This document shows positions 27,820 to 49,198 of a DNA stretch of 64,000 nt, in pieces. The DNA lies in the NCBI GenBank assembly GCA_019058365.1, contig JAHPZE010000008.1, forward strand, positions 1 to 64,000. The letters are read 5' to 3'. This DNA comes from Promethearchaeota archaeon (GTDB taxonomy: Archaea; Asgardarchaeota; Lokiarchaeia; Sigyniarchaeales; SOKP01). The stretch's first letter is position 1. Each line of letters begins with the position of its first letter. A program made the translations under genes and the position numbers. The notes beneath the pieces are model-generated. The model ran no database searches. It worked only from the letters and a program-made list of their open reading frames with translations, and was not told the origin of the DNA.

Positions 27820-28404
27820 ATGAGACCATCTCGAGTTTTTAGGTTGTTATTTAGGATATTCATATTACTATTAACTCTATCGGTAACTGTTGTATCTATA
27901 TTAGGTGGTTTATCCGCTCTTATAATACTTGATCCTTCTTCTAACAATATAGGAGTTGACTATACTGATGCAAGTTTTGACGTGGATTTTAACAATTTAA
28001 CGGGTGAGCTTACTGCTTTTAATTTTTCTTTACCTTTTAATATCACTAATGCTGGTTATTTTGATTTAGAAAATCTTCAGGTAGATATTAAGATCGGAAT
28101 GCGATATGAACATATAAATTATACTCTACCCGGTCAAAATGATACTATTTTCAAAAAGTTTTTTGAAAAACACCAAGATTATGGAACTATAATAAAAGGT
28201 AATAAAGGACTTTTCAATTTCACAGGAGATATGAGCAATATTATTTCGTTTCCCAATGCTACAAAGATAAATTGGTATAGAACGCCGCCCCCTGATGTAG
28301 AATTCTTTGCTAATTTTACTGTAGGTTTAACTTATTCTTTGGGATTACATTCTCTCGCATTTAGTATGCTTAATATATCAATAGGAGATTATTCATATCT
28401 ATAG
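27820..28404 (+). CDS. Hypothetical membrane-anchored beta-rich protein (LEA_2-like)
   Basis: N-terminal TM helix, then LPFNITNAGYFDL beta-sandwich-like pattern. Confidence 0.55.
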   Translation: MRPSRVFRLLFRIFILLLTLSVTVVSILGGLSALIILDPSSNNIGVDYTDASFDVDFNNLTGELTAFNFSLPFNITNAGYFDLENLQVDIKIGMRYEHINYTLPGQNDTIFKKFFEKHQDYGTIIKGNKGLFNFTGDMSNIISFPNATKINWYRTPPPDVEFFANFTVGLTYSLGLHSLAFSMLNISIGDYSYL

Positions 28405-28416
28405 GAGGTCATTAAG

Positions 28417-28908
28417 ATGGGAGCAACAAAAAATATGGTTAGGGGAACAATCTATACAAGCGTTTATGTTGTTACGACAATTATACTTCCTTTTTTATTA
28501 TTTAATTGGGTGAGAAATTTACAAATACCATTAGTGGGGGAAATAACATTAACTCAGGAAAACTATGAAAATATAATATTTTGGATAGTAGCTTTTGGAT
28601 TAATAATTAGTGGATGTGCTTTCTTTTCATATTCTTCCCCCAAGCAATCAATAAGAAGAACAGTATTTGCATTAATCCAAGTTATTGTAAATTGTCTATA
28701 TTTATGGAGTTACAAATTTTCTGGAGCCACCGAAATTCTATTTAATTTTAATATATCTGGATATCCTGGATTTCTATCTTTAAATCTCCAAACAATGGTC
28801 TTAGTATATATGGGAGTTTATTTTCTAACAATTGTATTAAAAATATATGATCTTGTTGATTTTAGTATTAATAGAAAGAAAATTCGAGAGAATAGAATGA
28901 AAGCATAA
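28417..28908 (+). CDS. Hypothetical 4-TM membrane protein
   Basis: Four hydrophobic segments; preceded by GGAGGT at 28404-28409. Confidence 0.75.
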   Translation: MGATKNMVRGTIYTSVYVVTTIILPFLLFNWVRNLQIPLVGEITLTQENYENIIFWIVAFGLIISGCAFFSYSSPKQSIRRTVFALIQVIVNCLYLWSYKFSGATEILFNFNISGYPGFLSLNLQTMVLVYMGVYFLTIVLKIYDLVDFSINRKKIRENRMKA

Positions 28909-28992
28909 GATGGGTGATAAAAAATAATTTTTCAAATACTAGGATTTTTACTGGTTCTTGCTGATATTTTTAGTGCTATCTTAATTTTTTTC

Positions 28993-29322
28993 ATGCCAAT
29001 TGTTATACCGGTAGGGACTTTTATGGTAAACTGGATAACTGCTACAATAACGTTTTTACAGCAAAATATTAGTCATAACTTAACTATTTTTATAGTAATA
29101 TGTATAATTTTAGTGGTTTCAGGTATTATTGTTAATATTATTTGGCCCGGTGACAGACCAGGTACAATATTTTCTAAGGGAATAGAAAAAATAGAAGAAT
29201 TAGAGGGTAAAGTAGATATATCTGAGAAAAAAGATATAATGGACGAAGTAAGAAGATGTAAGGACTGTGGTAATCCTATCGGAGACGCGGAAGTTTGTTC
29301 TTTATGCGGGGCTCGTAATTAA
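28993..29322 (+). CDS. Membrane protein with C-terminal zinc ribbon; reading frame open upstream to 28921
   Basis: TM segments; CKDC-x9-CSLC at the C-terminus; the true start is probably upstream (see findings). Confidence 0.7.
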   Translation: MPIVIPVGTFMVNWITATITFLQQNISHNLTIFIVICIILVVSGIIVNIIWPGDRPGTIFSKGIEKIEELEGKVDISEKKDIMDEVRRCKDCGNPIGDAEVCSLCGARN

Positions 29323-29750: not shown

Positions 29751-30500
29751 ATGAGCTTTAATTCTAAGGTTGAAAATTTCAAAAAGAAAAAGAATCTTTT
29801 TGAAGAATTAAACTATTATAAATCTATCATTCTAAAAAAAGTAAAGAGTGGAGATTATAATTCAGCTTTAGAAAAAGTAAGATCAGCATTGATATTAATT
29901 CAAGAACATAAAGATGCTTTTAGTACTGAAAAAGAACTTCTTGATTTTTATGAGCTAAGTAAACAAATACAGTCAGAATTAAAAAATCATAGAATGGTTT
30001 ATGAACGCAGATTCAATAATCTCTTGAAAGAAAAAATTGATGAAACTAATTTAGAAAGCTTTTCAAAATTGTTAGCTATGTTAAAAAATGAGGTAGATCA
30101 TAATCTCGATAAATACCATCTTCAAGATATCAGTTCTAAGATCACTCAATATTTTAAATATATAAAAAAAATATATGAAATATTGAGTTGCTATAAAATA
30201 TTGAATTACCATGATGCTTCCGATAAGATTTTTGAGTTTGTGAGAGATATTAAATCCGAGAACTTCCCAAACTTAAAGATGTTAATCTCATTAACTTATC
30301 AAAACTTAATACGTAATAGATTATTCGAATTTTCAAAAGATTTTGACAAACTTTCACTTTCTAATCTTTCTAATAAAATGGCTATGAACCAGGACCAACT
30401 ATATGATTTTATTAATATTATAAAAAAGCAACCAAAAAGTCCAGTACAAGAGTATATCCCTAAAACTCAAGAAATTGTTTTTAAAAGATCAAGTTTTTAA
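29751..30500 (+). CDS. Helical protein with C-terminal PCI-like winged helix
   Basis: All-helical N-part; LFEFSKDFDKLSLSNLSNKMAMNQDQLYDFI...QEIVF resembles the PCI consensus. Confidence 0.55.
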   Translation: MSFNSKVENFKKKKNLFEELNYYKSIILKKVKSGDYNSALEKVRSALILIQEHKDAFSTEKELLDFYELSKQIQSELKNHRMVYERRFNNLLKEKIDETNLESFSKLLAMLKNEVDHNLDKYHLQDISSKITQYFKYIKKIYEILSCYKILNYHDASDKIFEFVRDIKSENFPNLKMLISLTYQNLIRNRLFEFSKDFDKLSLSNLSNKMAMNQDQLYDFINIIKKQPKSPVQEYIPKTQEIVFKRSSF

Positions 30501-30536
30501 AATAAAGTTCTTTAAAACTTCCTTATTTTAAATTGA

Positions 30537-31460
30537 TTATAGCCCCCGATAAAATTCTGGGCGTAATATATTTTTATGAGTTAATCCATAATTTATTATA
30601 CTTAATATCTCATCTTTTTCTCTATCCAAAATACCTTTAATGGGTAAATAGTTTGATGCGTGATTACTCCGGAAGATACAATTTGCACTCTTATTATGAA
30701 ATTCAATTTGATTTATGAAATTTTTTAACTCTTGAAGAATTTCTATTGAATTCATCTCTAGAAATTCTCCTTTTATCTTTTTTTTAAAGATTTCAGTCCC
30801 AGAAGGTACCATAAGTGTTAGGAATGCAATATACCAAATTCTATCATCATCAGGACAGATTTTATTAACCAAATCAGCTGATTCTAAAGCATGTTCTATT
30901 GAAATTTCAGGATTATTTCCTCCACCAAGGCCATTTATCAAAGTCGCTGATAAAGTTATCCCTGCTTCCATCAACTTTTTAGAAGCTTTAATATGATCTG
31001 ATTTATTGACTTGTTTGTGTACCATTTCAAGTAAACGATCAGAACCAGACTCAAACCCAACATAAGCAATTTTAAGACCTGCTTCAAATAACATTCTTAA
31101 TTGCTCATCTGACTTTTTAAGTATATCTTTAGAGTGAGCATAAACACCACACCTTTCTAAATTTGGAAAAAGTGAATATGCATATCTGGTTATATCTAAT
31201 AATTTCTCAGTAGGAGTAACCATTGCATTCCCATCTAAGAAAAAAATTTTTCTCACATTTGATCCATATTGTTTTCTGGCAATATCTAAATCTTTTTTAA
31301 CTAATTGTACATCCCTAATCAAAAATTTTTTGCGAAGATTTGACATACAAAAATCGCATTTAAATGTACAACCCTCAGTTAATTGAATTAATAGGGAATA
31401 CGCTTCGGATGGTGGCCGAAATACAGGTTGACAGTAATATATTTCTTCCCTACTTTCCAT
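30537..31460 (-). CDS. Radical SAM protein of unknown function
   Basis: CTFKCDFC (CxxxCxxC); RPPSEAYS, YVGFESG, FRSNHASNY. Confidence 0.9.
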   Translation of the reverse strand: MESREEIYYCQPVFRPPSEAYSLLIQLTEGCTFKCDFCMSNLRKKFLIRDVQLVKKDLDIARKQYGSNVRKIFFLDGNAMVTPTEKLLDITRYAYSLFPNLERCGVYAHSKDILKKSDEQLRMLFEAGLKIAYVGFESGSDRLLEMVHKQVNKSDHIKASKKLMEAGITLSATLINGLGGGNNPEISIEHALESADLVNKICPDDDRIWYIAFLTLMVPSGTEIFKKKIKGEFLEMNSIEILQELKNFINQIEFHNKSANCIFRSNHASNYLPIKGILDREKDEILSIINYGLTHKNILRPEFYRGL

Positions 31461-31498
31461 TTTATCATAAAATAATGAGAGTAATTATTTTAAAAAGT

Positions 31499-32200
31499 TC
31501 ATTCTTCATCTTCTTCATCATCAGCTTCTTCATCATCAGCATCAGCAGACTTCTTTGGACATGAATTTAGATGTCTTCCTAAACGTAGAAATTCCTTTCC
31601 ACAGTAAGGACATTTCTGTTTTCCTGAACTTTTACTTTCTCCTCCTTCAGCTTTTTCATCACTTTTTTTTCGTTTCTTCTTTGGTTTAGAAGGCATAATA
31701 TCTTCGATACTTGCATCATCAGGTGCAAACTCACAGATCTTAATGTGGGAGGCAAGGTCAGCATATAGTTCTCCACAGAACGGACACTCTACTTCACCAA
31801 ATTCTTCTGAATCCTCCAATTCTGCTTTTCCCGCTTTTCTCTTTTCAAATTTTAATGGCTCTTCTTCATCCTCTTCATCAAATTCATCAATAGATAAATC
31901 AATTTCTTCATCGGATATTATATCTCCGAGTTCAAATACTTCCAATTTTATTTCTTTCTCTTTAATTCTCTTTTCTGCTAATTTTTTACTTTCTTCATAT
32001 ACATCAGAAAATCGCTGATTGTTTTTAACTGGATCATATATATCACATACTTGGCAAACATAAGCTCGAGTGCCCAAAGTTAATTCTCTAGCAGGACAAT
32101 AACATAAAGCTTGGAGACTTGTGCTTATATTACCTTTTGGTTCAAGATGTTTACACGCAATTTTCCTTGAATATTTAATTTTCTGTTTACGTCGTGGCAT
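31499..32200 (-). CDS. Acidic/basic low-complexity protein with N-terminal Cys cluster and two C2HC zinc fingers
   Basis: CPFCGELYADLASHIKIC and CPYCGKEFLRLGRHLNSC (C-x2-C-x9-H-x3-C); D/E tracts. Confidence 0.75.
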   Translation of the reverse strand: MPRRKQKIKYSRKIACKHLEPKGNISTSLQALCYCPARELTLGTRAYVCQVCDIYDPVKNNQRFSDVYEESKKLAEKRIKEKEIKLEVFELGDIISDEEIDLSIDEFDEEDEEEPLKFEKRKAGKAELEDSEEFGEVECPFCGELYADLASHIKICEFAPDDASIEDIMPSKPKKKRKKSDEKAEGGESKSSGKQKCPYCGKEFLRLGRHLNSCPKKSADADDEEADDEEDEE

Positions 32201-32304
32201 ATGCTGAGATCACTAAAAGAAGTATGCTAGATAATTATTCTTAAAATATAATTTTTTTGGATTGCATTTAATAAAATAAAATTTTTGGAAATATAGAATG
32301 AAAT

Positions 32305-33915
32305 TTAAAAATTATAATGTAGGTTTTTGAGATCATTCACAATTTTATTTTTCAATTCAACGTTTTCGAGGTTTGGTAATAGTTCTTCGACAATATCTCT
32401 TAACTCCATAACTTTTTGGACAAGTAATTCTGCTTTATTCCAAAAGGATGTTCTTAATGGATGCATTTTTAAAATAGCTTTATTAAAATTCTCAATTGCT
32501 GCTCTATAAAATAAACAAGCATTTTCTAGTTTATTAAGCCTTGATTGATAAATTGTACCAATTTTGTTAAAACACATTCCTGCACCAGCAAAATCTCCTT
32601 CTTTTTCAAAAATTATTGCAGCATCTTGAATTTTATTTAAAGCTTCCTCTAAAACATCGTTATCAGCTCTCTTCAATAACAGATATCCTTTAGTATAATG
32701 TGCTATTCCCAGATAAAAACGGTGATTTTGTTTCTTAGCAAGTTTATAAAGTTCATCTGTAAATTCGTCAGCTAAAATGAGATGTTCATTTGATATACAC
32801 ATATGTGAAACAATTCTTAATAAATCTAAAACTCTATCAAAATCTTTAATCTCTTTATACTTGTTAATACCTTGTCTAAGTTTTTCAATTCCAGCAAATG
32901 AATCTTTCTGTTCAAAAGCTTGGTTTCCTTCATAAATCAATTGTTCTGCTACTTCTTTTAATTTTATCTCTTTCTGCTTTTTCTTCGCATCTATTTCACC
33001 GTAAAAGAAATCATCCACACCGAATGCTATATCTTCTGTCATAGGAATTTCAGTTAAGAACTCTTTATTTGAAATACTACTAAGTTCATCGTCAAAGTGA
33101 ATTGATTCTTTAGCTTCTTGTTCTGATGATACTAATGTATTTTCTGGTGGTTTTTTATCTTCTCCATAAGCAGATTGCAATGGTTTTCCTTCTGTAACTA
33201 ATGCTGATAGTTCTGATAACACATTTGCGAAAAAATATTTGTTTAATCCATCTACAACATAATCCACTTTGTGATAATTCGTATCATACTGAGGATCATT
33301 AATGTCCATAGTAACATCAGTTATTCGATAAATTTCAAAACCAGTATCATATTTAGTCATTGCATATTCAGAACCATCTTCATTTTTTATAATTTCCTGT
33401 TTTTTCTTTCCTAATAGTGTGTGATCGAATACTAACCCACAAAAATCATTGTTGTTTTGCTGAAAACCTAATTGGTTAAGTAAATCTATGTAAGAAAAGA
33501 ATAAGTTTAATCCAGGATGACTATGGAACCATCCAACCATATAATATCCTTTTCCTTCCTTATCGAGCGTTTCCTGAATATTTTCAATAAATCCATAATG
33601 TCTCTCATCTAATTGCACATCTGTGGCATGACCAAACGTTAGGGCCTCAGCTCGCTCTACATATACTAATTCTTCGTCAGAAGTTCCAATTAAAATCCCA
33701 TAGATCTCCTTCCATTGCTCTGGAGGAATTGATTTATTTGCATAACGACCTGCATATAAAATTATAGTTTTATAAGCATCTGCTCTGATAACTATTGATT
33801 TACTGATTTTTTCTATATGCTTTTCTTCTTTAGTATCTTCATTTTCTAAATTAGATTCCGTATTTTCATTTCCTGAATTATTGTTATTATCGGGTTTTTT
33901 GAATTTCTCTGACAT
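32305..33915 (-). CDS. JAB1/MPN+ (JAMM) metallo-isopeptidase fused to TPR-like repeats
   Basis: KEIYGILIG ... VGWFHSHPGLNLFFSYID (E...HxH-x7-S-x2-D intact); C-terminal TPR/SNAP-like helices. Confidence 0.85.
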   Translation of the reverse strand: MSEKFKKPDNNNNSGNENTESNLENEDTKEEKHIEKISKSIVIRADAYKTIILYAGRYANKSIPPEQWKEIYGILIGTSDEELVYVERAEALTFGHATDVQLDERHYGFIENIQETLDKEGKGYYMVGWFHSHPGLNLFFSYIDLLNQLGFQQNNNDFCGLVFDHTLLGKKKQEIIKNEDGSEYAMTKYDTGFEIYRITDVTMDINDPQYDTNYHKVDYVVDGLNKYFFANVLSELSALVTEGKPLQSAYGEDKKPPENTLVSSEQEAKESIHFDDELSSISNKEFLTEIPMTEDIAFGVDDFFYGEIDAKKKQKEIKLKEVAEQLIYEGNQAFEQKDSFAGIEKLRQGINKYKEIKDFDRVLDLLRIVSHMCISNEHLILADEFTDELYKLAKKQNHRFYLGIAHYTKGYLLLKRADNDVLEEALNKIQDAAIIFEKEGDFAGAGMCFNKIGTIYQSRLNKLENACLFYRAAIENFNKAILKMHPLRTSFWNKAELLVQKVMELRDIVEELLPNLENVELKNKIVNDLKNLHYNF

Positions 33916-34180: not shown

Positions 34181-34233
34181 ATTTTTTGATATTGATTTTA
34201 AAATTTTAAGTTTTTTTTCTTAAAGTGCCTGAA
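34181..34233. repeat. 53-bp direct repeat, copy 1 (3' end of the SBP gene)
   Basis: 45/53 ungapped identity with 36899-36951 by hand alignment. Confidence 0.8.
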
Positions 34234-36723
34234 AACCAGAATGATGGATATCAGTCCAATTATTGGCATGAGTAAGAATCCATTGTATCCTGGAATAAAG
34301 TCTAATCCATTACTTTCTTCAAGTAAAACAGTGACACTAACACAATTGGATAATGTATACCCATGCTTATTATAAGCTGCAATAATGTAATAGTAGGTTC
34401 CATCCGACAGTCCGGTAATATGGTATGGTGAGGTTGCATTTTGATAGGAAAGTGGCGTTTGGCTGTAATCAAGGACAGTAATAAAACTATTAGATGTATA
34501 CACCGTATAATTATCTGCTCCTTGAGAACTGGTCCATAATAATTTGAAATATCCATCAGGATCAGGTGTATCAGCGTCGGATAACAACGTAAATGGTTTT
34601 GGAATTTCTCCTACAACAGTAACATTAATACAATTGCATAATGTGTACCCATACTCGTTATATGCTGCAACAATATAATAGTAAGTTCCATCCGACAATC
34701 CGGTAATAGAGTATGGTGAGGTTGCGTTCTGATCAGCAATAAGAGTAAGACCTCCGTTGATATCAGTAATATAACTATTAGATGTAAACACCGAATAATT
34801 ATCTGCTCCTTGAGAACTGGTCCATATTAAGTTGAAATTTCCATCAAGATCAGGACTATCTGCATCAGAATCCAAATTGAAATTATTGGGTGCCCATTCT
34901 ATTGAATAGAAATCAAGTATTCCCATCACATTATAAGAAAAGTTTTCTAATTCTGCCTTATGAACTTGTTGTACTAAGTACACCCAACCTGAGATATGAA
35001 CATGACTAGCTGGATTTAATGGGCGGTTTACGTCATAAATTAATGATTGGAACTTCATGTAATAGTCTAATTGTGTTGAATAATCAGTCTCGATTGCGGC
35101 TGCATCCATCAATTCAGTTAAACCGCCAGTACTAGTATCGTTAATTCGTGAGAAACATGCACCAGAATCTAAGTTAAATAATGGATCAATCATAGCAAAT
35201 GGATTTAAGTAATCTGGGCACCATCCTATATATCCAATATCCATCTCCCAAGGAGTTTGTTCACCAGTGTCTAAATAATCACCCCAATCTCTTATAGTTT
35301 CTGTAGTCTGAATTCCAATTAAATCAAAGTTGCTTGCCATTAATTGATTTAATCGTAGATTGGTGTTACTTCCAAAGTGCCTGTTTACTTCAAGATTTCT
35401 TCCAAGGATGTTTTGACCTGTCCAATCACCATCAGTATTGACATCAAATCCAGAAATATCGATCCCGCCACGAGCAATAATATCAGCAGCGTTATCTTTC
35501 AAAAGTTGTCTTGTTTTTACGATATTGGCTTCCCATGTGAAACTATCATCACTAGCTTGTATAACTGATGCATTATATCCTGGCATAGCTCGAGGAACTG
35601 CGGTAGTTCCCTCAACAGCATACCCAGCTTGAATTTCTTCATAAATATATGTATAGTTAATTGCTAATGCAAGAGCTCGTCTTAAGTATGCAGGATTTTT
35701 CTGATATTGAGGATTACCTGGTACAATCATAGAACCAGCAGTATCTCTTGGACCACAGTAAATTTCTAAATAGAAATAACAGAGATCTTCACCAACATCT
35801 TCCACATGAAAGGCTGGATCGGCTCTGAACGTATCGATATATGTTTTTGTGACACCACCAATATAATCAAATAGTCCAGCTAACCCGGCAGTCATTCTTG
35901 TTGTATCATCTTCAATGATCGTCCAAATCATCTCTTTAATTCTAGCTTCTCCTCGCCAATAGTTACTAAACGCATGGAATAGTATCTCAACATCCAATAC
36001 AAAGCTATCAAATTCGAAAGGACCTGTACCAATTAAATCATCAGTTGCTAAATCGAGATATCTATATCTAGGCGTAGACTCAGGTGATAAAATATGTGTG
36101 GCTCCAAAACAGAGTAAATCTAATAACGCACCAAATGGTTTACTTAAAATTATTGTAAATTCATAAGGATCTATATTATCATCCGCAATAAATGAATCAA
36201 AGATAGGAGTACCGTCAACATGAAAAAATACTGAGCTTGGAAATGCTTGTGTGGTATTACCAGGAAGAGCACCTGTGGCATTAATAAAATATTGTACTCT
36301 TTCAAAATTCCATTTCACATCTTCAGCAGTCATGATTGTTCCATCCTGGAATTGCACACCTTGTCTTAATGTAAACGTGATTTGAGTATTACTATCCCAA
36401 ACCCATGATTCAGCAAGCATAGGCTTTATTGCAAAACTAGAATGATTGGAGTAATCGTACTCAACTAACCCCTCTATAACTTGGTATTGTACATTTTTTG
36501 ATGAGATATCCCACGTATCAACAGGGTCAAGTACTGAAGGATTCCTCGCATAAGCCACTTTAAATGGAATATTTACAGTGGAAGAAGGATTTGGATATGG
36601 TTCTATCGATTTTATACTACTTCCATTATTCTCATTCTGGTAATTTAAAATAATTGAATAAGCAATAATTGAGGTAGAAAATATAATTAAAAGAAGTAAA
36701 AAACCTCTAAACTCTTTTTTCAT
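34198..36723 (-). CDS. Family 5 (peptide/nickel) ABC solute-binding protein with two FN3-like repeats and a C-terminal membrane anchor
   Basis: LDPVD, PMLAESW, FTLRQGVQFQDGT, IGTGPF, LRRALALAIN, GWCPDY; 2x ITGLSDGTYYY.VAAYN; IPGY-TM-basic tail. Confidence 0.88.
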   Translation of the reverse strand: MKKEFRGFLLLLIIFSTSIIAYSIILNYQNENNGSSIKSIEPYPNPSSTVNIPFKVAYARNPSVLDPVDTWDISSKNVQYQVIEGLVEYDYSNHSSFAIKPMLAESWVWDSNTQITFTLRQGVQFQDGTIMTAEDVKWNFERVQYFINATGALPGNTTQAFPSSVFFHVDGTPIFDSFIADDNIDPYEFTIILSKPFGALLDLLCFGATHILSPESTPRYRYLDLATDDLIGTGPFEFDSFVLDVEILFHAFSNYWRGEARIKEMIWTIIEDDTTRMTAGLAGLFDYIGGVTKTYIDTFRADPAFHVEDVGEDLCYFYLEIYCGPRDTAGSMIVPGNPQYQKNPAYLRRALALAINYTYIYEEIQAGYAVEGTTAVPRAMPGYNASVIQASDDSFTWEANIVKTRQLLKDNAADIIARGGIDISGFDVNTDGDWTGQNILGRNLEVNRHFGSNTNLRLNQLMASNFDLIGIQTTETIRDWGDYLDTGEQTPWEMDIGYIGWCPDYLNPFAMIDPLFNLDSGACFSRINDTSTGGLTELMDAAAIETDYSTQLDYYMKFQSLIYDVNRPLNPASHVHISGWVYLVQQVHKAELENFSYNVMGILDFYSIEWAPNNFNLDSDADSPDLDGNFNLIWTSSQGADNYSVFTSNSYITDINGGLTLIADQNATSPYSITGLSDGTYYYIVAAYNEYGYTLCNCINVTVVGEIPKPFTLLSDADTPDPDGYFKLLWTSSQGADNYTVYTSNSFITVLDYSQTPLSYQNATSPYHITGLSDGTYYYIIAAYNKHGYTLSNCVSVTVLLEESNGLDFIPGYNGFLLMPIIGLISIILVFRHFKKKNLKF
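34340..34870. repeat. Intragenic FN3-domain duplication, period 288 bp (96 codons)
   Basis: gttccatccgaca at 34397 and 34685; taattatctgctccttgagaactggtccata present in both copies. Confidence 0.9.
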
Positions 36724-45774: not shown

Positions 45775-46371
45775 TTACACAACAATATATGGTTTATGTT
45801 GTCTTTTTAACATCAAATTATTTAACTCTTTAAAAACCTCTAAAACATTATGATTCTTTAAAGCAGATGTTTTATAAAATCCTTCTAATTTTCTCTCTTT
45901 TACATAGTTGTAAATTAATTCCTCAACAATAATTTCAGAATCGGGTGTATTATCTATTAGATCGCTTTTACTTCCAACTAAAAGAATAGGAATCTTTGAA
46001 TCGACAGCATTCTCAATTAATTTATCATACCAGAAATCTAACTGATGAAAGGAGGGGTAGTTAACTAAATCGAATACCAATAAGGCTCCATTAGCACCTT
46101 CTATAAATTTAGGAATCAATGGGACAAATCTTTCTTGTCCTCCAAAATCAAAAATGGAATTAACTATATAATTCTCTTTCAATATTTCAGATTCTTTTTC
46201 TGTATTAATCTCTAAATATACAGAATGAAAATTTATCCCAATTGTCGGGGATGTGTCAAAATTGAATGAATTAAAACAATATCTGTTAAATAAACATGTC
46301 TTGCCCACTGAACTGGCGCCACATATTACTATTTTAAAACTAAATACTATATCTTTTCGATCATAACCCAT
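45775..46371 (-). CDS. Rab-like small GTPase
   Basis: G1 GASSVGKT, G2 PTIG, G3 DFGGQERF, G4 SKSD, G5 TSA. Confidence 0.92.
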   Translation of the reverse strand: MGYDRKDIVFSFKIVICGASSVGKTCLFNRYCFNSFNFDTSPTIGINFHSVYLEINTEKESEILKENYIVNSIFDFGGQERFVPLIPKFIEGANGALLVFDLVNYPSFHQLDFWYDKLIENAVDSKIPILLVGSKSDLIDNTPDSEIIVEELIYNYVKERKLEGFYKTSALKNHNVLEVFKELNNLMLKRQHKPYIVV

Positions 46372-48283: not shown

Positions 48284-49198
48284 ATGTTTATGACAACTAA
48301 AATCCCTCCTTCAGAAATAGTCATTAGACCTCCAGTAGAAGCTTATTCAGTTTTAATACCTGTAACTGGTGGCTGTTCGTGGAATAAATGTCGTTTTTGT
48401 GGCACATATAAAGGTGTTTATGGTGTTACTCAAGATTATGCTATACGATCCTTAGAAGATGTTAAAAAAGATATTGATAAATATGCTCAATCGAATTATC
48501 ATGGATTTCCGGTTTTTTTAGCGGGAGGGAATCCTACTTCGGCACCAACCGGATACTTAGCCGAAATCATTAAATATGTAAGAGTTAAGTTAAGAAATGT
48601 TCCTCGAGTAAGTTGTTATGCTAAATCATTAGATATTCTAAAAAAGTCTGATGAAGAATTAAAAACATTAGCTAATGCAGGATTAGATATTGTTTATATG
48701 GGCTTAGAAAGTGGTTCAAATACAATATTAAGAATTATGAAAAAAGGAACTAATGCTGAATCTATGATAAAAGCAGGAAAGAAAATTTTAAAAGCTGGAA
48801 TTAAATTATCATTATACATCATTCTAGGGTTAGGTAGTCACAAATATTCAGAAGAGCATGTGAAAGAAACTGCTAGAGTGTTAACTGAAATTAACCCAAC
48901 CATTTTTCGGTTCCGAACTTTAAATATTTTGCCTGGGACTCCTCTTTGGGATGAATGGAAATCTGGAGTATTTGAGTTATTGAGCCCTTTAGAGAATATA
49001 AAAGAAGAAAGGGACATCATAGCTAATCTAGGTGAAAATGTTACTTCTCAAGTCTTTAACGACCATGTATCTAATTATTGTACAATAGAATCTTCAAATA
49101 TAAAAGAAGATCGAAATATGTTTATAAAAACATTAGATTCTTTTATTAATGACCCAAGAATCCAAAAGATGGAAAGAAAAAACTTAATAAGAATGTGA
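48284..49198 (+). CDS. Radical SAM protein (paralog of 30537-31460)
   Basis: CSWNKCRFC; RPPVEAYS, YMGLESG, DHVSNY. Confidence 0.9.
   Translation: MFMTTKIPPSEIVIRPPVEAYSVLIPVTGGCSWNKCRFCGTYKGVYGVTQDYAIRSLEDVKKDIDKYAQSNYHGFPVFLAGGNPTSAPTGYLAEIIKYVRVKLRNVPRVSCYAKSLDILKKSDEELKTLANAGLDIVYMGLESGSNTILRIMKKGTNAESMIKAGKKILKAGIKLSLYIILGLGSHKYSEEHVKETARVLTEINPTIFRFRTLNILPGTPLWDEWKSGVFELLSPLENIKEERDIIANLGENVTSQVFNDHVSNYCTIESSNIKEDRNMFIKTLDSFINDPRIQKMERKNLIRM

What the first reader, a model, noticed from the sequence alone, without database searches (positions are those of the whole stretch)
29751..33915. Candidate minimal proteasome-lid/COP9-like module: JAMM-TPR + twin C2HC zinc-finger protein + PCI-like protein
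Seen: within 4.2 kb lie an intact JAMM isopeptidase, a protein with two C2HC fingers and a helical protein ending in a PCI-like WH. JAMM, zinc-finger and radical SAM genes are co-oriented (gaps 104 and 38 bp); the PCI-like gene converges on them. Known: the eukaryotic lid, CSN and eIF3 are built from MPN plus helical-repeat/PCI subunits, and UBZ ubiquitin readers are C2HC fingers. Inference: an eraser-reader-scaffold unit for ubiquitin-like modification. No Ub/E1/E2 gene is in the window, so the linkage may be coincidental.
Basis: partly seen in the sequence, partly recalled or inferred. Interest (0 to 1): 0.8.

Follow-up and report, generated by a model that had tools for sequence, protein, structure and literature searches.

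The report
Asgard JAMM-TPR protease with PCI-fold partner
One family of Lokiarchaeia (Asgard archaea) keeps an intact Rpn11/CSN5-type isopeptidase fused to a TPR arm next to a twin zinc-finger protein, a radical SAM enzyme and a small PCI-fold protein that is predicted to dock on the TPR arm, which makes it a testable archaeal MPN-PCI pairing but not a miniature proteasome lid.

Summary
P0004 (32305-33915, -) is an intact eukaryote-type MPN+/JAMM enzyme, closest to CsRpn11, Rpn11 and CSN5, joined by a disordered linker to an LGN/Pins-type TPR domain.

P0001 (29751-30500, +) has no sequence match to PCI. It folds confidently (pLDDT 89) into helical repeats plus a winged helix, and its long structural matches are nearly all PCI subunits.

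The complex predictor passed the P0001 / P0004-TPR pair: ipSAE 0.63 against 0.01 for the best control.

Comparative genomics changes the picture:
- The constant unit is radical SAM, zinc finger and JAMM-TPR. The zinc-finger/JAMM-TPR pair was found in 39 of 40 genomes of one GTDB family and in the sister family.
- The PCI-fold gene occurs in only 4 of 8 genera (27 of 40 genomes). It was lost at least three times and tolerates insertions beside it.
- The whole ~20 kb region is collinear, so synteny alone is weak evidence.
- The predicted interface is unlike the lid's, and the UBZ-reader idea is untested.

Verdict: a lineage-specific, probably targeted deubiquitinase-like complex with an accessory PCI-fold subunit. 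The lid/COP9 reading is partly supported. This scan flagged the same locus in at least 8 other genomes, and one earlier follow-up reached a similar but more sceptical verdict.

The parts
32305..33915 (-). P0004, 536 aa: MPN+/JAMM isopeptidase, disordered linker and TPR domain
   Evidence: Pfam JAB 45.8 bits. The PDB profile search ranks CsRpn11 first (E 3e-16), then Rpn11 and CSN5. AF2 model. Foldseek and VIA matches.
33193..33804 (-). MPN domain (residues 38-241). The JAMM motif H131-x-H133-x7-S141-x2-D144 lies at 33484-33525, and the catalytic E70 is upstream.
   Evidence: Invariant in 21 orthologues. Rpn11: Z 17.5, rmsd 3.0 over 165 aa. CSN5: Z 16.4.
32998..33192 (-). Disordered, poorly conserved acidic linker (residues ~242-306)
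   Evidence: pLDDT below 50 for residues 241-291. These columns vary in alignment A2.
32326..32997 (-). TPR solenoid (residues 307-530), all helical, with no winged helix
   Evidence: pLDDT mostly above 90. Pins/LGN TPR: Z 19.1, rmsd 2.8 over 176 aa. Weak Pfam SNAP and Rgg_C hits.
32764..32919 (-). Predicted docking surface for P0001 on the TPR domain (residues 333, 338-344, 347-348, 378, 380-381, 384)
   Evidence: complex prediction. Position 348 is Q in nearly all P0001-bearing g1/g4-type sequences and K/E/D/V/T in all 10 sequences from loci without P0001.
31499..32200 (-). P0003, 233 aa: N-terminal Cys-cluster domain, acidic and basic disordered tracts, and two CCHC fingers. Always adjacent to the JAMM-TPR gene.
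   Evidence: Alignment A3. NCBI locus tags place it beside the JAMM gene in 13 of 13 MAGs. Found in 39/40 family-f1 genomes and 3/3 sister-family genomes.
31733..31786 (-). CCHC finger 1 (C139-x2-C142-x9-H152-x3-C156)
   Evidence: Nearly invariant in A3; missing in the sister-family orthologue.
31559..31612 (-). CCHC finger 2 (C197-x2-C200-x9-H210-x3-C214)
   Evidence: Invariant in A3. Weak match to the beta-beta-alpha CCHC finger of 2l7x.
32045..32155 (-). N-terminal conserved Cys cluster (C16, C33, C35, C49, C52) of P0003
   Evidence: The most conserved part of A3. Fold unknown.
30537..31460 (-). P0002, 307 aa: radical SAM enzyme without a B12 domain. Co-directional with the zinc-finger and JAMM genes in nearly all orthologous loci.
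   Evidence: PF04055 at 61 bits. Weak similarity to class-B and lipid radical SAM enzymes. Contiguous with the zinc-finger and JAMM genes in 16 loci and absent in the GC14_75 lineage.
29751..30500 (+). P0001, 249 aa: PCI-fold protein (three-helix N-terminal bundle, helical repeats, C-terminal winged helix)
   Evidence: AF2 pLDDT 89.4. Nearly all of the Foldseek top 50 are PCI subunits. VIA Z 11.5, rmsd 4.2 over 168 aa against yeast chain 5mpb_Q.
30342..30482 (+). Winged helix of P0001 (residues 198-244: E200-202, H203-210, H214-225, E232-236, E241-244)
   Evidence: Secondary structure of the model. It aligns to the WH of PCI subunits.
30006..30080 (+). Predicted TPR-binding surface of P0001 (residues 86-110, RRFNNLL.E....NLE.F.KLLAMLK)
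   Evidence: complex prediction. Invariant within the g1/g4-type orthologues, but not significantly more conserved than the rest across the whole family.

Best explanation
P0004 is an active Rpn11/CSN5-type MPN+ isopeptidase, one of 4-8 MPN paralogues in this Lokiarchaeial family. Its C-terminal LGN/Pins-type TPR solenoid acts as a docking arm.

The small PCI-fold protein P0001, encoded convergently about 1 kb away, binds the first TPR helices (P0004 residues 333-384) through its helices 3-4 (residues 86-110). It serves as an accessory adaptor or regulatory subunit.

The always-adjacent twin-CCHC, largely disordered protein P0003 is the more constant partner. It could be a substrate adaptor, a regulator or a substrate, possibly bound as a peptide in the TPR groove.

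The likely reaction is removal of ubiquitin or a ubiquitin-like modifier from particular targets, because the genome encodes Ub, E1 and E2. The assembly is lineage-specific. It resembles eukaryotic MPN-PCI complexes in its parts list but not in its architecture.

Shown here: gene content, intact catalytic residues, folds, phyletic pattern and synteny.
Inferred: the binding (predicted only), the substrate, and the roles of the zinc-finger protein and the radical SAM enzyme.
For: MPN+ identity and intact active site:
- Pfam JAB 45.8 bits.
- The profile search against the PDB ranks CsRpn11 at E 3e-16, then Rpn11 and CSN5.
- Foldseek: CSN5 and Rpn11 at E 1e-9. VIA: Rpn11 Z 17.5.
- E70, H131, H133, S141 and D144 are invariant in 21 orthologues.

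TPR arm: Z 19.1, rmsd 2.8 over 176 aa to Pins/LGN.

PCI fold of P0001:
- pLDDT 89.4, with a terminal winged helix.
- Nearly all Foldseek top-50 hits are CSN, Rpn, eIF3 or TREX-2 PCI proteins.
- Z 11.5 over residues 76-249.
- In the search that does not depend on Foldseek, nearly all matches of about 150 aa or more over residues ~79-249 were PCI subunits.
- UniRef names the orthologue P0113 'PCI domain-containing protein'.

Predicted binding:
- ipSAE 0.63, 0.59 and 0.65 in three runs, against 0.01 for the best of 3 controls.
- That mark was reached by 58 of 80 solved complexes and by 2 of 110 mismatched pairs.
- The runs agree on the contacts, and the partner's pLDDT is 84.
- No similar complex has been solved, so the pass is unlikely to be recall of a known structure.

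Consistency with evolution:
- P0004 position 348 is Q in nearly all P0001-bearing g1/g4-type sequences. It is replaced in all 10 sequences from loci lacking P0001, which represent at least 3 independent losses.
- The contact R87(P0001)-E384(P0004) becomes K/Q in genus g3 and K/T in L020.

Linkage:
- P0001 lies within about 3.1 kb of the zinc-finger/JAMM pair in 22 of 22 genomes where both are assembled on one contig.
- This holds down to 30% identity of P0001.
- The zinc-finger gene is adjacent to the JAMM gene in every locus seen.

Possible substrates exist in the genome: a Ub-E1-E2-JAB operon on C34 and E1/E2 on C45.
Against: - P0001 was not found anywhere in the 9 sampled genomes of genera g2, g5, g6 and g7 (all but one 90-100% complete), which keep the radical SAM, zinc-finger and JAMM-TPR genes. 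The enzyme therefore does not need P0001.
- All the synteny lies within one GTDB family plus its sister. There the flanking P-type ATPase, three membrane ORFs, CoA-transferase, metallophosphoesterase and polyprenyl synthase genes are also collinear. Gene order alone cannot show a functional link.
- P0001 is on the opposite strand, and other genes have been inserted between it and the radical SAM gene (L019, L022).
- No sequence-level relation to PCI was found: Pfam, PDB profile, a profile search of 1.84 billion representatives that returned only 38 clusters, all matching along the 249-residue profile and read as the protein's own family or fragments of it, and hhalign probability of about 1%.
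- VIA Z values of 9-11.5 fall in the range that helical repeats can reach by common arrangement.
- Across the whole family the predicted P0001 interface is not significantly more conserved than random residue sets (p about 0.10).
- D338, G342, E344 and E384 of P0004 stay conserved in lineages that lack P0001.
- The complex score is a model's own confidence, obtained with my own unpaired alignments.
- The substrate, any role of ubiquitin, and the zinc-finger interaction are untested.
Confidence: 0.5

Rival explanations
1. The real functional unit is the co-directional radical SAM / zinc-finger / JAMM-TPR operon. The PCI-fold gene is only a neighbour preserved by the general collinearity of this clade, for example a winged-helix regulator or an adaptor for something else. 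The predicted contact is a false positive between two helical-repeat proteins.
For: - The radical SAM, zinc-finger and JAMM genes are contiguous in 16 loci, including the sister family (L026) and genera without P0001.
- P0001 is convergent, tolerates insertions beside it (L019, L022), and was lost at least 3 times.
- About 20 kb of unrelated flanking genes is also collinear.
- Two of 110 mismatched pairs reach the predictor's mark.
- An earlier follow-up on another genome (e1-5591041) read the synteny the same way.
Against: - The complex score of 0.63 stands against controls of 0.00-0.01, including a control that swapped the TPR chain.
- Interface position 348 changes in every lineage that lost P0001.
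- P0001 never appears away from the pair in the 22 genomes where this can be judged.
- P0001 stays next to the cluster in L019, where both outer flanks differ.
Confidence: 0.27
2. This is a maturation or biosynthetic cassette rather than a ubiquitin eraser. The radical SAM enzyme modifies the zinc-finger protein or a small molecule, and the JAMM domain acts as a processing peptidase, as Mec+/CysO or QbsD-type JAMMs trim carrier proteins. The TPR domain holds the substrate.
For: - The radical SAM gene lies 38 bp downstream of the zinc-finger gene and is conserved there.
- Bacterial JAMMs are known to process carrier-protein C-termini (established knowledge).
- P0003 has conserved linear motifs inside disordered tracts, as a substrate or scaffold would.
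- The radical SAM enzyme has weak similarity to RiPP and lipid radical SAM families.
Against: - The MPN domain is of the eukaryote-like Rpn11/CSN5/CsRpn11 type, not the prokaryotic Prok-JAB type (22.9 bits, below its cut-off of 25).
- No ThiS/MoaD-like carrier gene is in the cluster.
- The Lokiarchaeum GC14_75 lineage lost the radical SAM gene but kept the zinc-finger, JAMM and PCI-like genes.
- The radical SAM enzyme may instead belong with the nearby lipid genes: polyprenyl synthase, and CTP_transf_1 in L019 and L021.
Confidence: 0.12
3. A true proto-lid/signalosome. P0001 and P0004 descend from the ancestors of eukaryotic PCI and MPN subunits and assemble in the same way, with P0003 as a UBZ ubiquitin receptor.
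For: - The parts list matches: an MPN+ of Rpn11/CSN5 type, a PCI-fold protein and a CCHC finger.
- Binding is predicted.
Against: - The P0001 family is confined to 4 genera of one family (27/40 genomes there, 0/160 elsewhere in the phylum sample). Only 38 clusters match it among 1.84 billion representatives.
- No sequence similarity to eukaryotic PCI proteins was found.
- The predicted interface involves neither the winged helix nor a C-terminal helical bundle.
- There is no MPN- partner and only one PCI-like gene in the cluster.
- The finger spacing (x9) is shorter than in UBZ4, and no UBZ family matched.
Confidence: 0.08
4. P0001 is a ParD/RHH antitoxin, as NCBI names many of its orthologues.
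For: Weak matches of residues 21-63 to ParD: Pfam 20.8 bits, TIGR02606 22.4 bits, PDB ParD E 0.02. NCBI product names appear.
Against: - Both scores are below the curated cut-offs (21 and 46.2).
- The model has no N-terminal beta-strand, so no ribbon-helix-helix.
- The protein is three times the length of ParD.
- No toxin gene is adjacent.
Confidence: 0.02

Closest known systems
CsRpn11 of Caldiarchaeum subterraneum and eukaryotic Rpn11 / CSN5 (MPN+ deubiquitinases / deneddylase)
   Same: The same MPN+ fold and the complete E...HxH...S..D zinc site. These are the best sequence and structure matches. The host genome also has Ub, E1 and E2.
   Different: P0004 carries a disordered linker of about 65 residues and a 225-residue TPR solenoid that none of them has. 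It is not in a Ub operon; the genome's Ub operon on C34 has its own 276-aa JAB. No activity has been measured.
PCI subunits of the 26S lid, COP9 signalosome, eIF3 and TREX-2 (e.g. Rpn6/CSN2, CSN3, Rpn12, PCID2)
   Same: P0001 has helical repeats ending in an alpha-beta-alpha-alpha-beta-beta winged helix. PCI proteins dominate its structural matches. It is predicted to bind an MPN+ protein.
   Different: There is no detectable sequence relation. At 249 aa it is shorter than most PCI subunits. It is a single copy, not a six-member horseshoe. The predicted contact uses helices 3-4 against a TPR domain, not WH-WH sheets or a C-terminal helical bundle. It is confined to 4 genera.
AMSH / AMSH-LP and USP8 (deubiquitinases with a helical MIT targeting domain)
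   Same: The logic of a catalytic DUB domain joined by a flexible linker to an all-helical docking domain that recruits adaptors. P0001's N-terminal three-helix bundle gives generic MIT-like matches.
   Different: The domain order is reversed: the MPN domain is N-terminal here. The docking domain is a multi-repeat TPR, not a MIT domain. The MIT-like matches (Z 8.5-10 over about 70 aa) are within the range of chance for three-helix bundles.
UBZ4-type ubiquitin-binding zinc fingers (Rad18, WRNIP1, Pol kappa)
   Same: CCHC ligand set in a probable beta-beta-alpha finger.
   Different: The spacing is C-x2-C-x9-H-x3-C, against about x11 in UBZ4 as recalled from memory. No UBZ or other zinc-finger family passes its threshold. 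Ubiquitin binding is untested.
Helarchaeal single-chain TPR-MPN-WH-WH proteins noted earlier in this scan (e1-5506147, e1-5392964)
   Same: Asgard proteins that combine TPR, an intact Rpn11-like MPN+ domain and PCI-type winged helices. If real, they are a fusion counterpart of the two-gene arrangement here.
   Different: A different order of Asgard archaea and a different domain order, in one polypeptide.

Membership tests
MPN+/JAMM metalloisopeptidase (Pfam JAB PF01398) | Profile match above the curated cut-off | tested here: met
   45.8 bits against a cut-off of 22.5, residues 39-153. 49.3 bits in the genome search.
MPN+/JAMM metalloisopeptidase (Pfam JAB PF01398) | Catalytic E ... H-x-H-x7-S-x2-D zinc site | tested here: met
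   E70, H131, H133, S141 and D144 are present and invariant in 21 orthologues.
MPN+/JAMM metalloisopeptidase (Pfam JAB PF01398) | MPN fold closest to Rpn11/CSN5 rather than prokaryotic JAMM1/2 | tested here: met
   PDB profile: CsRpn11 3e-16, Rpn11 3e-13, CSN5 7e-13. VIA: Rpn11 Z 17.5 against PfJAMM1 Z 13.8. Prok-JAB scores 22.9 bits, below its cut-off of 25.
MPN+/JAMM metalloisopeptidase (Pfam JAB PF01398) | Isopeptidase activity on Ub or Ubl conjugates | not testable with these tools
   Needs an enzyme assay.
PCI domain (PF01399 / proteasome-CSN-eIF3) | Sequence profile match | tested here: not met
   - No PF01399 hit at E <= 1.
- The PF01399 genome scan hits 4 other loci but not this one.
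- The PDB profile search finds no PCI protein.
- hhalign against two PCI proteins of the same genome gives a probability of about 1%.
- The only contrary sign is a UniRef name on orthologue P0113.
PCI domain (PF01399 / proteasome-CSN-eIF3) | Helical-repeat subdomain followed by a C-terminal winged helix (alpha-beta-alpha-alpha-beta-beta) | tested here: met
   Model pLDDT 89.4, with H173-197, E200-202, H203-210, H214-225, E232-236 and E241-244. The Foldseek top 50 are nearly all PCI subunits, E 3e-3 to 0.15. VIA Z 11.5, rmsd 4.2 over 168 aa. This is a predicted structure, and the Z values lie in the grey zone for helical proteins.
Lid/CSN/eIF3-type PCI-MPN complex | MPN+/MPN- heterodimer | not tested
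   The cluster holds no second MPN gene. The genome has 5 other MPN loci elsewhere, and their pairing with P0004 was not examined.
Lid/CSN/eIF3-type PCI-MPN complex | Several PCI subunits joined through their winged helices into a horseshoe | tested here: not met
   Only one PCI-fold gene is in the cluster, and P0001 has no paralogue in the genome (blastp; one match per genome). Homo-oligomerisation was not tested.
Lid/CSN/eIF3-type PCI-MPN complex | MPN and PCI subunits tied together by a bundle of C-terminal helices | tested here: not met
   The predicted interface is P0001 residues 86-110 against P0004 TPR residues 333-384. P0001 ends in its winged helix with no C-terminal helix. This rests on prediction only.
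TPR repeat domain | Stacked helix-turn-helix repeats forming a solenoid that superposes on solved TPR domains | tested here: met
   Pins/LGN Z 19.1, rmsd 2.8 over 176 aa. Consensus TPR, KLC, NASP and Rap proteins score Z 13-17. No Pfam TPR family passes, only weak SNAP and Rgg_C hits.
UBZ (ubiquitin-binding zinc finger) | CCHC/CCHH beta-beta-alpha finger of UBZ spacing that binds ubiquitin | tested here: inconclusive
   The CCHC ligands are present with x9 spacing. Only sub-threshold hits to zf-C2HC_2, zf-Di19 and zf-CHCC. The precomputed PF28519 MTNAP1_ZnF hit is 'faint'. Ubiquitin binding is untested.
Radical SAM superfamily (PF04055) | Profile match and a CxxxCxxC cluster motif | tested here: met
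   61.1 bits against a cut-off of 29.5. C31-x3-C35-x2-C38. No subfamily is assignable: every NCBIfam hit is far below its cut-off.
ParD / RHH antitoxin (NCBI's name for P0001 orthologues) | Profile match above cut-off and a ribbon-helix-helix fold | tested here: not met
   PF03693 scores 20.8 against 21, and TIGR02606 scores 22.4 against 46.2. The model has no N-terminal strand.

The most novel reading that the evidence does not exclude
The P0001-P0004 pair is a genuine archaeal MPN+/PCI heteromer. That would make it the first PCI-type complex outside eukaryotes, and it would share ancestry with the building blocks of the proteasome lid, COP9 signalosome and eIF3. The Helarchaeal TPR-MPN-WH-WH fusions would be a second form of the same association. 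MPN-PCI pairing would then predate eukaryotes.
Probability: 0.12. Interest if true: 0.9.

Novelty: new variant of a known kind. Interest (0 to 1): 0.6.

Why it matters
MPN+ deubiquitinases of eukaryotes work inside PCI scaffolds (lid, CSN). According to the literature read here (PMC6043591), such PCI complexes are not known in archaea.

This is a conserved Asgard locus that encodes an Rpn11/CSN5-like enzyme and a PCI-fold protein, with a specific and mutationally testable predicted contact. It offers a simple two- or three-protein system for asking how MPN enzymes came to be controlled by helical-repeat/winged-helix partners.

Even if the resemblance is convergent, it shows that Lokiarchaeia diversified their MPN enzymes (4-8 per genome in this family) with dedicated targeting modules. 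It also gives names to three families that public records now label 'hypothetical' or, wrongly, 'ParD antitoxin'.

Tried and rejected
- Sequence link of P0001 to PCI: none found. Pfam and NCBIfam gave only sub-threshold ParD hits. The PDB profile search gave only ParD at E 0.02. The profile search of 1.84 billion representatives returned 38 clusters, all matching along the 249-residue profile and read as its own family or fragments of it, with none identified as eukaryotic. hhalign against two Pfam-PCI proteins of the same genome gave a probability of about 1%.
- ParD/RHH reading: rejected (below cut-offs, no beta-strand in the model).
- P0002 subfamily: no PDB relative at E <= 0.01. The protein atlas returned only generic radical SAM clusters.
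- Expression or co-transcription: no RNA holder was listed among the public runs, only DNA runs from sediment and salt-marsh metagenomes.
- Promoter and terminator reading of the intergenic regions: they are too AT-rich to interpret.
- Interface conservation test for P0001 across the whole family: not significant (p about 0.10).
- Search for the Helarchaeal TPR-MPN-WH fusions through a phylum-wide JAB scan: the listing did not single them out, and I did not pursue it.
- Zinc-finger/TPR and zinc-finger/ubiquitin binding: not tested, because the single complex job went to P0001-P0004. Only the TPR domain of P0004 was offered to the predictor, so a contact of P0001 with the MPN domain was not examined.
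- MIT-like matches of P0001's N-terminal bundle (Z 8.5-10 over about 70 aa): treated as generic three-helix-bundle similarity.

Full report
OBSERVATION

- P0001: 29751-30500 (+), 249 aa.
- P0002: 30537-31460 (-), 307 aa.
- P0003: 31499-32200 (-), 233 aa.
- P0004: 32305-33915 (-), 536 aa.

The co-directional gaps are 104 and 38 bp, and 36 bp lie between the converging genes. The window is G000:C12:1-64000 of a 4.74-Mb, 54-contig genome with about 29% G+C. The source names on its homologues are Promethearchaeota / Lokiarchaeia.

THE JAMM-TPR PROTEIN (P0004)

- Pfam JAB (PF01398) scores 45.8 bits against a cut-off of 22.5. The prokaryotic Prok-JAB model stays below its cut-off.
- E70, H131, H133, S141 and D144 are invariant in 21 orthologues that go down to 43% identity.
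- A profile of the family finds CsRpn11 of Caldiarchaeum (E 3e-16), then Rpn11, CSN5 and BRCC36, with AMSH far weaker.
- The AF2 model (mean pLDDT 74) has three parts: an MPN domain (38-241), a disordered linker (241-305) and a confident all-helical domain (307-530).
- Foldseek matches the MPN domain to CSN5 and Rpn11 at E 1e-9.
- The exhaustive VIA search gives Rpn11 Z 17.5 (rmsd 3.0 over 165 aa). For the C-terminal domain it gives Pins/LGN TPR at Z 19.1 (rmsd 2.8 over 176 aa), followed by KLC, NASP, Rap and SNAP-type TPRs.
- The C-terminal domain has no winged helix, so P0004 is not itself a PCI protein.

THE PCI-LIKE PROTEIN (P0001)

No sequence method links it to PCI:
- Pfam and NCBIfam give only sub-threshold ParD hits over residues 21-63.
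- A PDB profile search gives the same.
- A profile search of 1.84 billion representative proteins returns 38 clusters, all matching along the 249-residue profile and read as its own family or fragments of it.
- hhalign against two Pfam-recognised PCI proteins of the same genome gives a probability of about 1%.

The fold tells a different story:
- With a 25-sequence alignment, AF2 gives pLDDT 89.4 and pTM 0.77. The model has helical pairs followed by H173-197, E200-202, H203-210, H214-225, E232-236 and E241-244, which is a winged helix.
- Nearly all of Foldseek's top 50 hits are PCI proteins: CSN1/2/3/4, Rpn3/5/6/7/12, eIF3a/c/e and PCID2/Csn12. E-values run from 3e-3 to 0.15 and probabilities reach 1.0.
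- VIA re-alignment gives Z 11.5 (rmsd 4.2 over 168 aa, residues 76-249) to yeast chain 5mpb_Q, which I take to be Rpn6 from its length (434 aa) and chain letter. Many CSN2, Rpn and PCID2 chains score Z 9-10.
- In the search that does not depend on Foldseek, the top rows are short, generic three-helix-bundle matches to residues ~9-82, of MIT type. The long matches to residues ~79-249 are PCI subunits, for example CSN3 at Z 9.0 over 158 aa.
- These Z values are in the range that helical repeats can reach by chance. I therefore rate 'PCI-type fold' as well supported and 'homologous to PCI' as open.
- UniRef's own name for orthologue P0113 is 'PCI domain-containing protein'. NCBI's frequent 'ParD family antitoxin' label is contradicted by the model.

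THE ZINC-FINGER PROTEIN (P0003) AND THE RADICAL SAM ENZYME (P0002)

P0003 contains, in order:
- a strongly conserved N-terminal Cys cluster (C16, C33, C35, C49, C52);
- an acidic motif (IDLSIDEFEEE...PLKFEKRKAGK);
- two C-x2-C-x9-H-x3-C fingers;
- a lysine tract;
- a variable acidic tail.

Only sub-threshold zinc-finger hits were found. The UBZ idea is neither supported nor excluded.

P0002 is a radical SAM enzyme without a B12 domain. It resembles class-B and lipid radical SAM families only weakly. A 38%-identical paralogue lies at 48284-49198.

COMPARATIVE GENOMICS

In a sample of 200 Asgard genomes:

| Gene | Own GTDB family (f1) | Elsewhere |
|---|---|---|
| P0001 | 27/40 genomes; genera g1, g3, g4, g8; none in g2, g5, g6, g7 | 0/160 |
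| TPR domain of P0004 | 39/40 | one clear orthologue, in 1 of 3 sister-family genomes (G165, E 5e-33); weak generic TPR matches (E >= 6e-8) in 20 further genomes of other families |
| P0003 | 39/40 | weakly in 3/3 sister-family genomes, plus one marginal match (E 6e-4) in another family |

Wherever P0001 and the pair are assembled on one contig (22 genomes), they lie within about 3.1 kb. P0003 is always directly beside P0004.

Fetched loci show this ancestral layout:
- three small membrane ORFs (+), with an FMN reductase gene (-) beside them in many loci;
- P0001 (+), converging on radical SAM, zinc finger and JAMM-TPR (all -).

The radical SAM, zinc-finger and JAMM genes are contiguous in 16 loci. 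In the sister family the radical SAM gene is inverted. The radical SAM gene is missing only in the Lokiarchaeum GC14_75-type loci.

P0001 is missing from g2, g5, g6, g7 and from L042. Genes have been inserted beside it in L019, L021 and L022. A tree of P0004 puts the P0001-less lineages in at least three places, which implies repeated loss.

The outer flanks are also largely collinear across the family: P-type ATPase, CoA-transferase, metallophosphoesterase, polyprenyl synthase and the ComDE genes. Synteny alone cannot prove function. It does hold in L019, where the outer flanks differ, and down to 30% identity of P0001.

PREDICTED INTERACTION

One complex job was available. I gave it P0004 residues 300-536 and P0001, each with its alignment. 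The result:
- ipSAE of 0.63, 0.59 and 0.65 in three runs, against 0.00-0.01 in three controls.
- The pass mark was reached by 58 of 80 solved complexes and 2 of 110 mismatched pairs. Those counts hold only roughly, because my own alignments were used.
- The runs agree on the contacts, and the partner's pLDDT is 84.
- The interface is P0001 residues 86-110 against P0004 residues 333-348 and 378-384.

The verdict is that the model supports binding; it does not show it. No similar complex has been solved, so recall of a known structure is unlikely.

Evolutionary consistency is modest but points the same way:
- P0004 position 348 is Q in almost all P0001-bearing g1/g4-type sequences. It is K, E, D, V or T in all ten sequences from loci lacking P0001.
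- The R87-E384 contact changes on both sides in g3 (K/Q) and in L020 (K/T).

Two observations point the other way:
- Across the whole family the P0001 interface is not significantly better conserved than random residue sets (p about 0.10).
- Several P0004 interface residues remain conserved in lineages without P0001.

CONTEXT IN THE GENOME

- There is a canonical JAB-E2-E1-Ub operon on C34, further E1/E2 genes on C45, and Ub-like ORFs on C12 and C16. Ubiquitin-type substrates therefore exist.
- P0004 is one of six JAB loci in this genome. Genomes of this family have 4-8 JAB matches, while most other Asgard families have 1-2.
- No RNA data were found.

INTERPRETATION

The best-supported reading is a lineage-specific, targeted MPN+ isopeptidase. 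Its TPR arm recruits an accessory PCI-fold subunit and probably the constant zinc-finger partner as well.

It resembles eukaryotic MPN-PCI complexes in its components. It fails the architectural features that define the lid, CSN and eIF3:
- no PCI horseshoe;
- no MPN- partner in the cluster;
- no C-terminal helical bundle;
- an interface on the TPR domain.

The main rival is that only the radical SAM / zinc-finger / JAMM operon is functional and P0001 is a bystander kept by collinearity.

The literature I could search has no description of an archaeal MPN-PCI pair. Fuchs et al. 2018 state that PCI complexes are not known in archaea (PMC6043591). Makarova et al. 2024 note PCI-like winged helices in other Asgard and ESCRT contexts (PMC10936438).

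This scan flagged the orthologous locus in at least 8 other genomes. One earlier follow-up (e1-5591041) also found the PCI fold but saw no support in gene order. The present session adds four things: the predicted complex, the loss pattern with its interface correlate, the constancy of the radical SAM neighbour, and the family-level distribution.

Noticed in passing
G000 contig C7:87210-94539 (outside the window; locus L031 7211-14539): Two tandem MPN paralogues (468 and 493 aa, each an MPN domain plus a long helical tail), a Zn-ribbon protein, an MPN gene that seems split (105 + 212 aa) and a 734-aa AAA+ (MoxR/Mg-chelatase-like) protein with a VWA domain lie together. An MPN pair beside AAA+ and VWA domains recalls the components of the proteasome regulatory particle.
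   Followed up: partly
window 48284-49198 (+) and 45775-46371 (-): A second radical SAM gene, 38% identical to P0002, lies 17 kb away. In relatives it is conserved next to an Arf/Ras-like small GTPase gene and a polyprenyl synthase gene.
   Followed up: partly
window 27820-29322 (+): Three small ORFs with no family match (194, 163 and 109 aa) are conserved in this order upstream of P0001 or the radical SAM gene in nearly every orthologous locus, including genera without P0001. All three have hydrophobic, membrane-like segments. The first is rich in N-x-S/T sequons. The third ends in a CxxC...CxxC zinc ribbon.
   Followed up: partly
window 29751-30500 and its orthologues in public records: NCBI annotates many orthologues of P0001 as 'type II toxin-antitoxin system ParD family antitoxin'. 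The match covers about 40 residues and is below threshold, and the predicted fold is not RHH. The label looks wrong.
   Followed up: yes
window 34198-36723 (-): The 841-aa SBP_bac_5 solute-binding protein gene sits between the JAMM gene and the ComDE-like TPP genes only in this lineage. In Lokiarchaeum GC14_75-type loci the JAMM gene abuts ComDE directly.
   Followed up: no
sample of 200 Asgard genomes: The window's GTDB family has 4-8 Pfam-JAB matches per genome (2 in one incomplete genome), while most other Asgard families have 1-2. This is a family-specific expansion of MPN proteins.
   Followed up: no
G113:C22 and G162:C100 (loci L029, L030): In two genus-g4 assemblies the contig ends right after the zinc-finger gene, exactly where the radical SAM and P0001 genes would follow. 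Their apparent lack of P0001 is therefore probably an assembly break, not a loss.
   Followed up: no
G000 contig C16:296300-301317 (outside the window): A 307-aa protein with a weak Pfam PCI hit (22.4 bits) lies about 5 kb from a ubiquitin-like ORF. This is another possible PCI/Ub association in the same genome.
   Followed up: no
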